A stretch of DNA of 35,862 bases from a virus. The translations under genes and the position numbers were made by a program. Shown piece by piece: positions 1 through 35,862 of this stretch. The DNA lies in the UHGV virus genome UHGV-0385955, one strand, 5' to 3'. The stretch's first letter is position 1, and the number at the start of each line of letters is the position of its first letter. The notes below the pieces were generated by a model. That model was not told the origin of the DNA, searched no databases, and was given only the letters and a program-made list of their open reading frames with translations.

Positions 1-463
1 CAGAGCGCTTATTGATCATATTTGCACGTATAGGCATAGGGTAAGCCAGAACCTTATCGAAAAATATCTGCTCGAAAATCTTGAAAGAGAGTACGAAAAG
101 TATAAGGTCCGCACCAACCAGATCAGCGAAGAGTTAAAAAAGCAAAAGAAAGCGAAAGATCCGAAAAAGCTTAGAAAAGAAATGGAACGATTAAATTTGT
201 TATTTCAAAAGGGGCGGATCTCTTTTGAATATTACGATACGGAATACAACCGGCTAGAAGAAGAATACGTGCACTCTTCCAACCCATGCCAACAAAAAGA
301 AGAAGCTCGCAATACACGATACATAGAAGAATTGCTGCAAACTGATTTTCGGCAGATGTACAACTCTCTTTTGCTCGAAAACAGGCGTTCTTTTTGGCGA
401 TCCACAATACAGGAGATTTACCTAAATGATGACAATACGATTAAAGCTGTAGATTTTTTATAA
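1..463 (+). CDS. Large serine recombinase (integrase), C-terminal part (coiled-coil region). It continues the ORF that leaves the window at 35862. Partial at the window start.
   Basis: Frame 2 is open from base 2 to TAA at 461..463, although the track only reports it from M at 182. The terminal 2 nt (aa) plus base 1 (c) give AAC, then AGA GCG CTT follows in frame. The charged, coiled-coil-like sequence (EELKKQKKAKDPKKLRKEMERLNLLFQKGRISFEYYDTEYNRLEEEY) is typical of the region after the LSR zinc ribbon. Confidence 0.75.
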   Translation, partial: RALIDHICTYRHRVSQNLIEKYLLENLEREYEKYKVRTNQISEELKKQKKAKDPKKLRKEMERLNLLFQKGRISFEYYDTEYNRLEEEYVHSSNPCQQKEEARNTRYIEELLQTDFRQMYNSLLLENRRSFWRSTIQEIYLNDDNTIKAVDFL

Positions 464-467
464 TCTG

Positions 468-517
468 TTTTGTACTAAGTGTTTAGCCCCATTTGGGGCA
501 GTATAATTAGTACAAAA
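468..517. other. 50-bp dyad-symmetric site, candidate attP for the serine integrase. The alternative is a bidirectional terminator-like hairpin.
   Basis: TTTTGTACTAA (468..478) and TTAGTACAAAA (507..517) form a perfect 11-bp inverted repeat. An inner perfect inverted repeat, GCCCCA (486..491) / TGGGGC (494..499), flanks a central TT (492..493). No U-tract follows on either strand. The site lies 5 nt after the int stop codon. Confidence 0.4.
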
Positions 518-532
518 TAAATGATACAATAT

Positions 533-712
533 TCAGGACGGCAGATCCATCCGTCCAACACTCATATACGCCGCCCGTAAAAAGGTGTGCATCATTTCGG
601 TTGTCAGAGTCATACCTTCTGGCAGCCGGAACTTGAATGTATTACCTGGTATCTCCAAAAACTCTTGGTAAAGCAAAAATGTATCGTAAGATTCGTATAT
701 TTGATATTCCAT
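533..712 (-). CDS. Small hypothetical protein, about 59 aa. The track ORF is 533..727, and the probable start is the internal ATG at 712.
   Basis: The ORF has RBS GGAGGGGATAGAT before the ATG at 712. An extended -10 (TGATATAAT) lies upstream on the minus strand, at about 735..745. Confidence 0.45.
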   Translation of the reverse strand: MEYQIYESYDTFLLYQEFLEIPGNTFKFRLPEGMTLTTEMMHTFLRAAYMSVGRMDLPS

Positions 713-775
713 ATCTATCCCCTCCATTTATTCCATTATATCATAAAAATATTTTAAAAACTTTTCATTTTCCTA

Positions 776-32036: not shown

Positions 32037-32264
32037 ATGAGACGTTGTAATTCGCCATTTAACGGCAATCGCTATGTGCTTAATAAAAACACTGGTGAAA
32101 TCCATGATTTAGACCGCGAAACCTCGTGCTGCCGCATAAATGATATAAAGTCCGAACATATCTTTAATTGCAGTTCCTATGAGGAAGCTGTTGTTTTTTC
32201 TTCCATGCTTGACATCAGAAGAAACGGATGCGCTCACTGCATGCCAGAGAAAAACAACGGATAA
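32037..32264 (+). CDS. Small Cys/His-rich protein, 75 aa, on the + strand inside the early region
   Basis: RBS GAAAGGAG precedes the ATG at 32037. Its 3' end overlaps the convergent minus-strand gene by 31 nt. Confidence 0.35.
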   Translation: MRRCNSPFNGNRYVLNKNTGEIHDLDRETSCCRINDIKSEHIFNCSSYEEAVVFSSMLDIRRNGCAHCMPEKNNG

Positions 32265-32665
32265 CCATTAAGAGCTGCTTCTTTTAAATGAGGTAGCTCT
32301 TTTTCAGGTATCTCCTCTTCAAGAAGTTCTGCAAATGCTTCAGGAGTTTTTTTGACTTCGATCAAGCCAAATACCATATTAGAAAACTCTTTCTCTCTAG
32401 TAATGGATTTCAATACATCGAATTTTTTTATCTTTCTATCCTTATTTTCTTCGTCAAGACCTATAAACTCATCGATATATTTTTCGATACGTTCAACCCC
32501 CTGAATTTCTTCGCGCAACTCTTCTGGTTGTTCAAGAATTTTTTTTGCAGTATTCCTGATTAAATTCTCCGTATTTTCCTTCTGAATTTTGATGTCATCT
32601 TCACACTTTTTGATGCGATACAGCAAGCAATCCCATGATCGTCTTGAAACCCACATCTTTCTCAC
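32234..32665 (-). CDS. Hypothetical protein, 143 aa, first gene of the minus-strand early operon
   Basis: ORF directly downstream of the minus-strand early promoter. No HTH recognised. Confidence 0.55.
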   Translation of the reverse strand: MRKMWVSRRSWDCLLYRIKKCEDDIKIQKENTENLIRNTAKKILEQPEELREEIQGVERIEKYIDEFIGLDEENKDRKIKKFDVLKSITREKEFSNMVFGLIEVKKTPEAFAELLEEEIPEKELPHLKEAALNGYPLFFSGMQ

Positions 32666-32735
32666 CTCGCTTTCTTTTTCCCCGTCATGCCGATAGGTCA
32701 GCGTTTTTTTGTTTTGGTTTGTGTTGTTGCTTTCT

Positions 32736-32749
32736 TGTTGATGAACAAA
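32736..32749. promoter_or_regulatory. Operator-like palindrome TTGTT-gatg-AACAA at the transcription start of the minus-strand early promoter
   Basis: Same half-sites as the second palindrome at 32808..32823. Confidence 0.5.
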
Positions 32750-32778
32750 TCATAACTCGTTTTATTTTGTTTGTCAAT
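32750..32778 (-). promoter_or_regulatory. Early lytic promoter, TTGACA-N17-TATGAT (minus strand)
   Basis: On the + strand TGTCAA lies at 32773..32778 and ATCATA at 32750..32755. Confidence 0.6.
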
Positions 32779-32807
32779 AAGATTTTTAAAAAAATTAAAT
32801 ATTTTTC

Positions 32808-32862: not shown

Positions 32863-33246
32863 TTGGAATTAAATATAGGAGAAAGAATTGAAATCTTAAG
32901 AAAAGACTTAAGTATGTCCAGGAGAGTTTTTGGAGAAAGGCTTGGCGTCAGTGAAAGCGTTATTGTTAATATAGAATACGATCGCTTGAAACGCCCAGAT
33001 CAAAAAGAATCCTTATATAAGTTGATTTGTAAAGAGTTCAATGTGAACGAAGAATGGTTAAGAACCGGAAACGGTGAAATGTTTATCCAATTAACAAGAG
33101 ACCAGTTGATTACAGACTTTGCTGCTGATCTTATAATGGAAAATGATACATTTAAAAAAAGATTAGTAGAAGCTCTTGCAAAGCTGGATGAAAGTGAATG
33201 GGATGTCCTAGAAAAGCTCGCAGAGAGCTTAATTAAAAAAGACTAG
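32863..33246 (+). CDS. CI-like prophage repressor. XRE-family HTH with a C-terminal domain. TTG start.
   Basis: HTH IGERIEILRKDLSMSRRVFGERLGVSESVIVNIE. Transcribed divergently from the lytic operon with operators between them. Confidence 0.7.
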   Translation: MELNIGERIEILRKDLSMSRRVFGERLGVSESVIVNIEYDRLKRPDQKESLYKLICKEFNVNEEWLRTGNGEMFIQLTRDQLITDFAADLIMENDTFKKRLVEALAKLDESEWDVLEKLAESLIKKD

Positions 33247-33876: not shown

Positions 33877-34341
33877 ATGAAAAAGAAAATTGTAGCAATG
33901 CTATTAGCGGGAATTATGGCATTATCAATTACAGCATGTGGTGGGGATGCCGAACCATCCAAAGACACCGAAACAAAGACAGAAGAAACAACAGACCAGA
34001 AAGAAGAGAAGAAAGAGCCTTTGAATTTAACTGGAACATGGAAATCAGAAGAAGTCGAAGGGTCATATCAAGAAGCTACGATTTCTGATGATGTAATAGA
34101 AATAAATTGGGTGTCTGATGGAGGAAATACAAAATCACTTTACTGGGCTGGCACTTACGTTGCGCCAACCGAGCCAACTAACGATTACGCATGGACATCG
34201 GAAAACGATAAAGAAAAAACAGGGATGGCGTTACTAGCATCAAGTGACGATACAAAAGAATTTACATACAAAGACGGTGTGATTAGTTATGAAGCGTCCG
34301 CTATGGGAACTACAAAAAAGGTCGAGTTAACCAAAAAATAA
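33877..34341 (+). CDS. Prophage lipoprotein (Ltp/Sie-like candidate)
   Basis: Signal peptide MKKKIVAMLLAGIMALSITAC with lipobox ITAC. RBS AAAGTGAGGAAACT. Lies between the repressor and the integrase. Confidence 0.8.
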   Translation: MKKKIVAMLLAGIMALSITACGGDAEPSKDTETKTEETTDQKEEKKEPLNLTGTWKSEEVEGSYQEATISDDVIEINWVSDGGNTKSLYWAGTYVAPTEPTNDYAWTSENDKEKTGMALLASSDDTKEFTYKDGVISYEASAMGTTKKVELTKK

Positions 34342-34371
34342 AGCATTGAATTAAGAAAGAAGGAACATACA

Positions 34372-34746
34372 TTGATTGATTTTCAGAACAAAAAAGTATT
34401 CAAATTAAGCAAAGGAAAAGAAAAGAACATTCCGAGAGAAGTTTTCAGCTTGCTTATAACTGATGAAGAAGTGGCCGGGTATTACTCTTCGATGAGAGAC
34501 TTCGTTGTTTTTACAAACAAAAGAATTATTGCATGCAACGTGCAAGGTATTACAGGATCTAAAAAAGATTATACATCGTTGCCATATTCAAAAATGCAAG
34601 CGTTTTCGGTTGAAACTTCTGGTACTTTCGATATGGACTCTGAACTCACTGTTTGTTTTAGTGGATTAGGAACAGTGAAATTTGATTTCACCTCGAACTC
34701 AGATGTGCAATCTATAAACAGACTTATAGCGTCACACGTTTTATAA
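34372..34746 (+). CDS. Bacterial PH-domain (bPH) protein, 124 aa. TTG start.
   Basis: VVFTNKRIIACNVQG ... LPYSKMQAFSVE resembles the bPH fold family. Confidence 0.55.
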   Translation: MIDFQNKKVFKLSKGKEKNIPREVFSLLITDEEVAGYYSSMRDFVVFTNKRIIACNVQGITGSKKDYTSLPYSKMQAFSVETSGTFDMDSELTVCFSGLGTVKFDFTSNSDVQSINRLIASHVL

Positions 34747-34927
34747 AATAAAAACCGCCCCAGTGCTACCAACACCGGGACGGCAATACATATCCGAAGA
34801 TATGCGATTGAAATCCAAGAATATTGTATCATCTTCGGAGCAGTCATGCAAGCGGAACATCAGTTCGCACGTTGGCTGTTATTTTTATACTCATTTTTAA
34901 ATACTATTTACAAGGGAGTGATGCAAA

Positions 34928-35862
34928 ATGCAAGAGAAAATACTAAGATGCGCCATCTATATCCGTGTCTCAACGTTTGAGCAAAGTGTACACGGGAAGT
35001 CACTGCAAGCACAGAAAGAATGCCTGGAGCAATACGCAACAGACAACAATATGTCTATAGTAGGTGTCTATGCGGACGAGGGAAAGACTGCCAGAAAAGA
35101 ATTGAAGAAAAGAAAAGCCATACACGCTCTTGTAGAGGACGTAAAAAGGGATAAAATTGATGTGATAATTTTCTGGAGACTCGACAGATGGTTTCGAAAT
35201 CTGTCAGATTTCTATAAGGTCCAGGATGTACTTGATGAGCATGGAGTGCGTTGGATCTCGGTTTCCGAGCCAGGAATAAACATGGAGACCAGAGACGGAC
35301 GATTGCAGTTAAATGTAGTGCTGTCGATCGGTCAAAACGAAGTAGACACCACATCCGAGCGAATTAAATTTGTGAATGAAGCATCTATAAGACAGAAAAA
35401 GCTAATATTTGGAGATGCAAATATGCCTTTTGGTTATAAAACAGGTGTTGTAGATGGAAAGAAATGCATGGTTAAAGATTCGGAAACAGAACACATGGTG
35501 GAAGATTTTTTTGAATATTTTAGAAATCATAACTCCAAGAAGGGCGCTATCCGGTACATGCAGGAAACCTATGGAATTGATTTTAGCTATGGCATGTTAC
35601 GGACGATGTTATCCAGCGAATTTTATAAAGGGACGTACAGAGGATACCCTTATTGTCCAGCATACCTGTCAGAAAAAGAATGGGATGAGATGCAAACTAT
35701 ATCGAAAAGAAATATTAAAAACACGCCGTCTGGTAGAATATACCTATTTACAGGTTTGATGCGCTGTCCTGTGTGCGGACAGAAATTAGTTGGCACCGGA
35801 TGCTCATCAATTATCAACCGTAAAACCGGAGAAAAAAGAACATACTGCTACTACCGTTGCAA
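34928..35862 (+). CDS. Large serine recombinase (integrase), N-terminal part: catalytic, recombinase and zinc-ribbon domains. It runs off the window end and continues at 1..463.
   Basis: Catalytic motif AIYIRVSTFEQ. Zinc ribbon LMRCPVCGQKL...YCYYRC. RBS AAGGGAG. No stop before the window end. Confidence 0.9.
   Translation, partial: MQEKILRCAIYIRVSTFEQSVHGKSLQAQKECLEQYATDNNMSIVGVYADEGKTARKELKKRKAIHALVEDVKRDKIDVIIFWRLDRWFRNLSDFYKVQDVLDEHGVRWISVSEPGINMETRDGRLQLNVVLSIGQNEVDTTSERIKFVNEASIRQKKLIFGDANMPFGYKTGVVDGKKCMVKDSETEHMVEDFFEYFRNHNSKKGAIRYMQETYGIDFSYGMLRTMLSSEFYKGTYRGYPYCPAYLSEKEWDEMQTISKRNIKNTPSGRIYLFTGLMRCPVCGQKLVGTGCSSIINRKTGEKRTYCYYRC

What the first reader, a model, noticed from the sequence alone, without database searches (positions are those of the whole stretch)
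468..517. 50-bp near-perfect dyad around a central TT directly after int: candidate attP
The outer 11-bp arms are perfect inverted repeats and the inner 6-bp arms are also perfect, flanking a central TT at 492..493. Serine-integrase attP sites are roughly 40 to 56 bp, imperfectly symmetric about a central dinucleotide, and usually lie next to int. As a terminator it is poor, because there is no U-tract on either strand.
Basis: partly seen in the sequence, partly recalled or inferred. Interest (0 to 1): 0.65.

Follow-up and report, generated by a model that had tools for sequence, protein, structure and literature searches.

The report
Serine-integrase attP site, confirmed
The 50-bp palindrome-like site right after the integrase gene is the spot where this gut-bacterium (Ruminococcus gnavus) phage recombines with its host chromosome, shown by dozens of integrated copies whose phage/host junctions fall at its central TT; it is a well-known kind of site, newly mapped for this phage group.

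Summary
Positions 468-517 form a dyad with perfect 11-bp outer arms and perfect 6-bp inner arms around TT 492-493. It is the best dyad in the window, and 1 of 300 randomised windows reach its score.

The window is a circular 35.9-kb temperate phage related to R. gnavus phage RG-TP1. Its 465-aa large serine integrase spans the window ends and stops 5 bp before the dyad.

The attP reading is supported by comparative mapping:
- Contigs with int next to host DNA match the window only up to 496.
- Contigs with the other prophage end, including R. gnavus ATCC 29149, match only from 491.
- One IMG/VR contig carries both junctions.
- The rebuilt empty site, GTCACAGGA-TT-TGGAGCCGACAAAAC, occurs intact in 61 gut metagenome contigs. 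Most have flanks about 99-100% identical to the junction flanks.
- A secondary-site junction breaks right after TT. In a relative, attL and attR share only TT.
- Relatives whose site reads AA from the int side sit in the same host gene in the opposite orientation (4 of 4).

The target is the VTGFGAD codons of an NMT1-family lipoprotein gene, which integration splits. This is an ordinary biological kind, a new member. No recombination assay was possible.

The parts
468..517 (.). attP: the full 50-bp imperfect dyad (P arm, TT, P' arm) of the phage attachment site
   Evidence: Sequence read; dyad score 19/24, best in the window. Intact in phage or circular forms (RG-TP1, L018, L028, L029, L032). 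Split at its centre in prophages.
468..491 (.). P arm, the int-proximal half-site; it stays joined to int and ends up in attR
   Evidence: It is identical in attR loci L013, L017, L019-L026, L118, L121 and L146, each followed by host DNA.
492..493 (.). Central TT, the inferred crossover dinucleotide
   Evidence: It is the dyad centre. The attL/attR homology overlap is 491-496. Secondary-site junction L122, with the same P arm, ends at 493. In L006, attL and attR share only TT. Relatives with AA at the centre integrate in inverted orientation.
494..517 (.). P' arm, the int-distal half-site; it ends up in attL next to the 64-aa ORF
   Evidence: An identical P' arm follows the host sequence ...GTCACAGGA-TT in L161 and L166. 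Variant P' arms occur in L027, L031, L033, L034 and 12 more IMG/VR loci.
468..478 (.). Outer left arm TTTTGTACTAA, a candidate zinc-ribbon-domain recognition motif (inferred)
   Evidence: It is a perfect inverted repeat of 507-517. Both outer arms change together in relatives: GTATTAAC/GTTAATAC in L106 and CATGTTACTAAC/GTTAGTAACATG in L139-L141.
507..517 (.). Outer right arm TTAGTACAAAA
   Evidence: Same evidence as for 468-478.
486..499 (.). Inner palindrome GCCCCA-TT-TGGGGC. It includes the 6-bp identity with attB (ATTTGG, 491-496).
   Evidence: attB reads CAGGA-TT-TGGAGC, so only ATTTGG is shared with attP.
34928..35862 (+). Large serine integrase gene, 5' part; it continues across the circular junction into 1-463
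   Evidence: Joining the window end to its start gives one 465-aa ORF. It matches Pfam Resolvase, Recombinase and Zn_ribbon_recom. It is 97% identical over 100% of its length to the 465-aa protein P0001.
1..463 (+). Large serine integrase gene, 3' part (stop codon at 461-463)
533..727 (-). Convergent 64-aa ORF of unknown function; it is the first phage gene inside attL in prophages
   Evidence: no Pfam hit. It lies next to attL in R. gnavus ATCC 29149 loci L027 and L031.

Best explanation
Positions 468-517 are the attP site of the phage's large serine integrase, whose gene ends 5 bp upstream. The inferred mechanism comes from the established model for large serine integrases. An integrase dimer binds the two nearly symmetric half-sites, with the inner GCCCCA/TGGGGC contacted by the recombinase domain and the outer TTTTGTACTAA/TTAGTACAAAA by the zinc-ribbon domain. 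This complex pairs with a dimer on the bacterial attB, GTCACAGGA-TT-TGGAGCCGACAAAAC. That attB lies in the VTGFGADKT codons of an NMT1-family lipoprotein (substrate-binding protein) gene of R. gnavus. All four strands are cut at the central TT, half-sites are exchanged by subunit rotation, and the ends are religated. The result is attL (host-TT-P') and attR (P-TT-host). The non-palindromic TT fixes the orientation of the prophage. Integration splits the host gene. Shown here: the site, its split at the centre in prophages, the empty attB, the target gene, and the link between dinucleotide and orientation. Inferred: domain-to-motif assignment, the 2-bp stagger exactly at TT, and the minimal site size.
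For: (1) The integrase has Resolvase, Recombinase and Zn-ribbon domains and is seamless across the circular junction.
(2) attR-type contigs carry a 97-100% identical int and P arm, and their homology to the window stops at 496-499. This holds for L013, L017, L019-L026 and L146.
(3) attL-type contigs match the window only from 491 onward. These include R. gnavus ATCC 29149 assemblies GCA_000169475.1 and GCA_002959615.1 (strain identity from PMC6547426 and PMC10438805), which are 99.1% identical to the window over 5.8 kb.
(4) Both junctions occur on single IMG/VR contigs: L146 with L161, and L118 with L153.
(5) The rebuilt attB occurs uninterrupted in 61 metagenome contigs. Most have 300-bp flanks about 99-100% identical to the attL left flank and the attR right flank.
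(6) Crossover bounds: the core shared by attP and attB is ATTTGG. Secondary-site junctions L122 (same P arm) and L127 diverge immediately after TT. In L006, attL (GTGGG-TT-AGGGG) and attR (TTCCA-TT-TGGGG) on one contig share only TT.
(7) Polarity: relatives whose site reads AA from the int side (attP forms L111 and L112; junctions L002, L003, L010, L114) have int abutting the 5' part of the same NMT1 gene on the opposite strand, in 4 of 4 cases. All TT-type junctions in that gene abut its 3' part on the same strand.
(8) attP forms of relatives keep a 16-20/24 dyad, with concerted changes in both outer arms.
Against: There is no biochemical or genetic test; all evidence is comparative. For this exact phage, sequence alone bounds the crossover to 491-493 (AT or TT). 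The choice of TT rests on dyad symmetry and on relatives (L006, L114). attB shows little dyad symmetry, and I could not find the about 5-bp inward shift of the outer motif that the LI-integrase model predicts for attB. The motif-to-domain assignment is therefore unverified. The dyad also folds into a very stable hairpin (-26.9 kcal/mol, z -4.9), so an additional RNA or DNA structural role is not excluded.
Confidence: 0.95

Rival explanations
1. The dyad is only a bidirectional intrinsic transcription terminator or RNA-stabilising hairpin between the convergent int gene and the 64-aa ORF, with no role in recombination.
For: It sits between convergent ORFs. It folds strongly on both strands: -26.9 and -23.2 kcal/mol, z -4.9 and -4.2, with 0 of 200 shuffles folding as well.
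Against: Neither strand has a U-tract, and the terminator scan does not call it. In every lysogen the hairpin is split in two at its centre, with host DNA joined exactly there. A pure terminator would not explain this. A secondary terminator or insulator role in the excised phage remains possible (about 0.15) but is not exclusive with attP.
Confidence: 0.02
2. The dyad is an operator for a dimeric regulator, such as a repressor or excisionase-like factor controlling int, and the true attP is elsewhere, for example upstream of int at 34750-34927.
For: Palindromes of this size can be operators. Some serine-integrase phages carry attP upstream of int (established knowledge).
Against: The homology breakpoints of all prophage junctions fall at 491-496, not upstream of int. 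In lysogens, int and its upstream region stay contiguous with the other phage genes, as in L017-L026.
Confidence: 0.01
3. The site is attP, but the staggered cut is at AT (491-492) rather than TT (492-493).
For: For this phage, the attP/attB identity (ATTTGG) and the L122 breakpoint allow either AT or TT.
Against: The dyad axis lies between 492 and 493. In L006 the base left of TT differs between attL (G) and attR (A). In the AA-type lineage the base flanking the dinucleotide also differs between attP (L111/L112) and the host junction (L114).
Confidence: 0.04

Closest known systems
phiC31 integrase attP/attB (Streptomyces phage; large serine integrase). Properties are from established knowledge and were not tested here.
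   Same: It is a roughly 40-50-bp imperfect inverted repeat next to int, with a TT central dinucleotide that sets polarity. There is very little attP/attB identity beyond the core. attB lies inside a host ORF.
   Different: The arm sequences and the host are unrelated. By sequence the integrase is only a distant relative: the PDB search found only catalytic-domain matches, such as TP901-1 integrase at E 6.5e-12. Here attP lies downstream of int, and the target is an NMT1-family lipoprotein gene.
Listeria phage A118 / LI integrase (attB in comK) and Bacillus SPbeta SprA (attB in spsM). Properties are from established knowledge.
   Same: These are Firmicutes temperate phages with a large serine integrase. 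They insert inside a protein-coding gene and split it, and int sits at the prophage end next to the att site.
   Different: Those systems are documented to restore the host gene on excision as a regulatory switch. Here restoration on excision is expected from the conservative mechanism, but no regulatory role is shown. I could not recognise the about 5-bp register shift between the attP and attB zinc-ribbon motifs described for LI integrase.
Ruminococcus phage RG-TP1 (PQ571303) and cluster D serine-integrase R. gnavus phages (PMC13435783)
   Same: The site and flanks are 97.7% identical over 221 bp. The dyad is the same with one change, TGGGGC to TGGAGC. It belongs to the same integrase family.
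   Different: PMC13435783 states that the integration sites of its R. gnavus phage library, most of which encode serine integrases, were not identified. The mapping here therefore appears not to be in the literature I could search.
phiRgPS6-type R. gnavus phages (Buttimer et al. 2023, PMC10072058)
   Same: They share the host species and related tail and lysis modules, at 85-90% nucleotide identity in 2.1-6 kb of the window.
   Different: Those phages use a tyrosine integrase with a 21-bp identical attP/attB core in an intergenic region. That is a different recombination system and a different site.

Membership tests
attP site of a large serine integrase (LSI) | The site is encoded beside a large serine recombinase gene with a resolvase catalytic domain, a recombinase domain and a zinc-ribbon domain. 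| tested here: met
   The 465-aa protein matches PF00239 at 5e-27 and PF13408 at 7e-8. PF07508 scores 20.7 bits, just below its 21.1 cut-off. The stop codon is 5 bp before the site.
attP site of a large serine integrase (LSI) | The site is a roughly 40-56-bp imperfect inverted repeat around a non-palindromic central dinucleotide. | tested here: met
   It spans 50 bp, has 19/24 complementary arm positions, and has a TT centre.
attP site of a large serine integrase (LSI) | In lysogens the site is split at its centre into hybrid attL and attR sites at the prophage ends. | tested here: met
   attR homology ends at 496 and attL homology starts at 491. Both junctions occur on one contig (L146 with L161).
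attP site of a large serine integrase (LSI) | A cognate attB exists unoccupied, shares the central dinucleotide, and has only minimal identity to attP. | tested here: met
   61 metagenome contigs carry GTCACAGGATTTGGAGCCGACAAAAC with matching flanks. Identity to attP is limited to ATTTGG.
attP site of a large serine integrase (LSI) | The central dinucleotide alone determines the polarity of integration. | tested here: met
   This is a natural experiment. AA-centred relatives lie in the same gene in inverted orientation, 4 of 4. TT-centred relatives all lie in the direct orientation. The evidence is correlative, not mutational.
attP site of a large serine integrase (LSI) | The attB half-sites carry the zinc-ribbon motif about 5 bp closer to the centre than attP does (LI-integrase structural model). 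| tested here: inconclusive
   I aligned P, P', B and B' by eye from the sequences. No clear 5-bp-shifted copy of GTACAAAA appears in attB. B' has GACAAAA about 9-10 bp closer to the centre, which may be chance.
attP site of a large serine integrase (LSI) | The integrase alone catalyses unidirectional attP x attB recombination through a 2-bp staggered double-strand break. | not testable with these tools
   This needs an in vitro or in vivo recombination assay.
Intrinsic (rho-independent) terminator | A GC-rich stem-loop is followed by a U-tract. | tested here: not met
   A stable stem is present, but neither strand has a T-run, and the scan does not report the site.

The most novel reading that the evidence does not exclude
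The site belongs to a Lachnospiraceae-wide integrase lineage. Over integrase divergence down to about 52-58% identity, and across genera labelled Dorea, Eubacterium, Muricomes and Sporofaciens, the lineage has kept one target: the GFGAD codons of an NMT1-family lipoprotein gene. Within the lineage, inversion of the core dinucleotide (TT versus AA relative to int) has repeatedly flipped prophage orientation. In addition, reversible disruption of this substrate-binding-protein gene might act as a phage-controlled host phenotype switch ('active lysogeny'). The first part is largely shown here. The switch is pure speculation.
Probability: 0.15. Interest if true: 0.5.

Novelty: new member of a known kind. 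Interest (0 to 1): 0.3.

Why it matters
It gives the attP, attB, crossover dinucleotide and target gene for the serine-integrase phages of R. gnavus. This is an IBD-associated gut commensal, and a 2026 phage-library paper states that the integration sites of its phages were not identified (PMC13435783).

It also explains why the type strain ATCC 29149 may resist lysogenisation by such phages: its attB is already occupied.

In practice, a 465-aa integrase with defined sites of about 50 bp (attP) and about 40 bp (attB) is a candidate tool for single-copy chromosomal integration in Lachnospiraceae, which are hard to engineer.

The natural TT/AA orientation flip is a textbook-clean illustration of dinucleotide-determined polarity. 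It does not change what is known about how serine integrases work.

Tried and rejected
- The exact-sequence look-up of the 64-aa ORF product found nothing. I reached prophage contigs through integrase homologues and cluster members and through the 141-aa ORF at 839-1264.
- An exact 18-nt anchor search right of the dyad missed most loci because of polymorphism. I replaced it with blastn.
- The PDB sequence search gave only catalytic-domain relatives: resolvase-family proteins, TP901-1 integrase, and one 500-aa integrase at E 1e-4. It was therefore of no use for assigning DNA-binding motifs.
- I looked for the 5-bp register shift of the outer motif between attP and attB and for dyad symmetry in attB. 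Neither was convincing, so neither is claimed.
- The terminator reading is rejected as the sole function (plus the junction data).
- attP upstream of int is rejected.
- Structure prediction, Rfam searches and covariance models were not used, because the junction mapping was decisive.

Full report
**Observation**

The sequence at 468-517 is TTTTGTACTAAGTGTTTAGCCCCA-TT-TGGGGCAGTATAATTAGTACAAAA.
- The 11-bp outer arms (468-478 and 507-517) and the 6-bp inner arms (486-491 and 494-499) are perfect inverted repeats around TT 492-493.
- In all, 19 of 24 arm positions pair, which is the top dyad score in the window.
- One of 300 Markov-randomised windows reached 19/24 anywhere, and none reproduced the 11+6 architecture.
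- The site begins 5 bp after the integrase stop codon (461-463) and lies between int and a convergent 64-aa ORF at 533-727(-).
- It folds into a strong hairpin on either strand. It has no T-run, and the terminator scan does not call it.

**Context**

- Joining the window end (from 34928) to its start (to 463) gives one uninterrupted 465-aa ORF.
- This ORF has Resolvase, Recombinase and zinc-ribbon recombinase domains.
- It is 97% identical over its full length to a 465-aa database protein. The window is therefore a circularly closed genome with a large serine integrase across the junction.
- The genome is related to temperate Ruminococcus (Mediterraneibacter) gnavus phages.
- The induced phage RG-TP1 carries the same int-proximal region at 97.7% identity, with a single change in the dyad.

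**Junction mapping (the decisive test)**

*attR side*
- Integrase relatives in 11 GTDB representative genomes showed a first pattern. After the int stop the left half-site is kept (CTTGTACTAAC, then 7 nt, then xxCCA). After the centre the sequence becomes a conserved bacterial coding sequence.
- Contigs holding near-identical integrases (the P0001 cluster) confirmed this for the window's own phage. In L013, L017 and L019-L026 the int and the P arm are identical to the window, and homology ends at 496-499. An NMT1-family gene fragment and other bacterial genes follow.

*attL side*
- Contigs found through the phage's 141-aa ORF (839-1264) gave the other end. L027 and L031 come from assemblies GCA_002959615.1 and GCA_000169475.1. 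These are R. gnavus ATCC 29149 according to PMC10438805 and PMC6547426.
- In L027, L031, L033 and L034, homology to the window starts at 491. It runs on at 99% identity over 5.8 kb in L027 and over about 2 kb to the locus end in L033. Bacterial genes and the 5' 80 codons of the same NMT1 gene lie to the left.

*Both ends together*
- IMG/VR added 14 more attL junctions. Two of them, L161 and L166, have exactly the window's P' arm.
- Two contigs carry both junctions: L146 with L161, and L118 with L153.

**Empty site**

The attB rebuilt from the host halves of attL and attR is GTCACAGGA-TT-TGGAGCCGACAAAAC. It occurs uninterrupted in 61 human-gut metagenome contigs. In most of them, the 300 bp on each side are about 99-100% identical to the attL left flank and the attR right flank. 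The site lies in codons 76-84 (VTGFGADKT) of a lipoprotein-type NMT1-family substrate-binding protein gene.

Integration splits this gene:
- attL gives 80 host codons plus a short phage-encoded tail ending in a stop.
- attR leaves a 259-aa ORF that starts at an internal ATG, without the signal peptide.
- I read the frames from the sequences. No phage-supplied start codon restores the gene.

**Crossover position**

- attP and attB share only ATTTGG (491-496).
- A junction with the same P arm at a different host site (L122) matches the window only to 493. L127, from a sister phage, likewise diverges directly after TT.
- L006 has an integrase 65% identical to the window's, and both junctions lie 5.3 kb apart on one contig. 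Its attL reads GTGGG-TT-AGGGG and its attR reads TTCCA-TT-TGGGG, so the two share only TT.
- In the AA-centred lineage, the base next to the dinucleotide also differs between attP (L111/L112) and the host junction (L114).
- Together with the dyad axis, this puts the exchange at TT 492-493. For the window phage alone, AT 491-492 is not formally excluded.

**Polarity**

Relatives whose site reads AA from the int side include attP forms L111 and L112 and junctions L002, L003, L010 and L114. In these, int abuts the 5' part of the same NMT1 gene on the opposite strand, in 4 of 4 cases. All TT-type junctions in that gene abut its 3' part on the same strand. This is what the serine-integrase rule predicts, namely that the central dinucleotide alone sets orientation.

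attP forms across the family keep 16-20 of 24 dyad positions, and the two outer arms change in concert. Examples are GTATTAAC/GTTAATAC in L106 and CATGTTACTAAC/GTTAGTAACATG in L139-L141. This fits recognition of both arms by the same protein domain.

**Mechanism**

The mechanism is inferred from the established large-serine-integrase model. Integrase dimers on attP and attB synapse, cut all four strands with a 2-nt stagger at TT, rotate subunits and religate, which gives attL and attR. The assignment of the inner arms to the recombinase domain and the outer arms to the zinc-ribbon domain is inference. I could not see the expected 5-bp register shift in attB.

**Rivals**

- A terminator-only role is contradicted by the missing U-tract and by the fact that the hairpin is split in every lysogen. 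A secondary structural role in the excised phage cannot be excluded.
- An attP upstream of int is contradicted by the breakpoints.

**Comparison and novelty**

This is a typical serine-integrase attP. It resembles phiC31 in its TT core, and A118 and SPbeta in their intragenic attB sites (from established knowledge). It differs only in sequence, host and target gene.

The R. gnavus phages described by Buttimer et al. use a tyrosine integrase and a different 21-bp att. The 2026 library paper on R. gnavus phages, most of which encode serine integrases, says that integration sites were not identified. The mapping here therefore looks new for this group, but it is a new member of a well-known kind. 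Large computational catalogues of serine-integrase att sites exist (from memory), and I could not check whether this pair is already listed there.

**Verdict**

Interest is modest and mostly practical: a defined int/attP/attB set for a hard-to-engineer gut taxon.

Noticed in passing
L006:4090-9470 (MAG labelled Muricomes sp., contig JASGKW010000009.1): A mini-element of only about 5.3 kb sits in the same NMT1 target gene, bounded by attL and attR. It carries the integrase (65% identical to the window's) plus an amino-acid permease, a non-specific endonuclease and a VCA0040-like membrane protein, and no phage structural genes. It is either a decayed prophage or a small integrative island using the same int/att system. 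Its two junctions share only TT.
   Followed up: partly
window 32727-32788 (centre about 32757): This is the second-best dyad in the window (18/24): TTGTTGATGAACAAATCATAAC..GTTTTATTTTGTTTGTCAATAA. It lies in the gap between the divergent ORFs 32234-32665(-) and 32863-33246(+). The latter is a weak HTH_19 match in the identical locus L029. It is a candidate operator of the lysis/lysogeny switch.
   Followed up: no
window 33877-34746; compare L018, L028, L014, L037: The slot between the repressor region and int holds different cargo in close relatives. Here it holds a 154-aa putative lipoprotein and a 124-aa bPH-domain protein. Elsewhere it holds a DUF4236 protein, a TM2-domain protein or an Ltp-type lipoprotein. 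This looks like a variable 'moron' locus next to int.
   Followed up: no
L122, L127, L014, L012 (downstream of int): These junctions join the same or a sister P arm to unrelated host sequence: TT-CCATGTTCGCC, TT-CCGGCAAAATGG, TT-TGGAGAAAACAGGGC. They suggest secondary or alternative attB sites for members of this integrase family. The flanks are short and their origin was not identified.
   Followed up: partly
L036:1505-1560 (ENA ERZ1310796 contig, coverage about 1.9): An odd hybrid is present: the P arm, TT, nine bases of host-type B' (TGGAGCCGA), then phage sequence from about window 524 onward (ACAATATTCTCAGG). It could be an imprecise excision product or an assembly artefact of a low-coverage contig.
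   Followed up: no
window 494-517 versus L018, L027, L103, RG-TP1 (L001): The same P arm is found combined with at least four P' arm variants: TGGGGCAG..., TGGAGCAG..., TGGAGTAG... and TGGGGATGTATACTTAGTACAAAG. The int-distal half-site and the adjacent 64-aa ORF region therefore seem to be exchanged among otherwise close phages. Position 497 (G or A) varies between the attP-type and attB-type base.
   Followed up: no
L027 and L031 (R. gnavus ATCC 29149 assemblies): The type strain already carries a prophage 99% identical to the window over 5.8 kb in this attB. This may explain the report that no phages could be isolated on ATCC 29149 (PMC13435783), through an occupied site and/or superinfection immunity.
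   Followed up: partly
L038:4652-7605 (GCA_008917125.1 contig SKEO01000206.1): Here the NMT1 fragment after attR is cut short (76 aa) and is followed by Abi_2 and SMC-like genes. This suggests a second insertion, possibly a defence island, in the same host gene downstream of the prophage.
   Followed up: no
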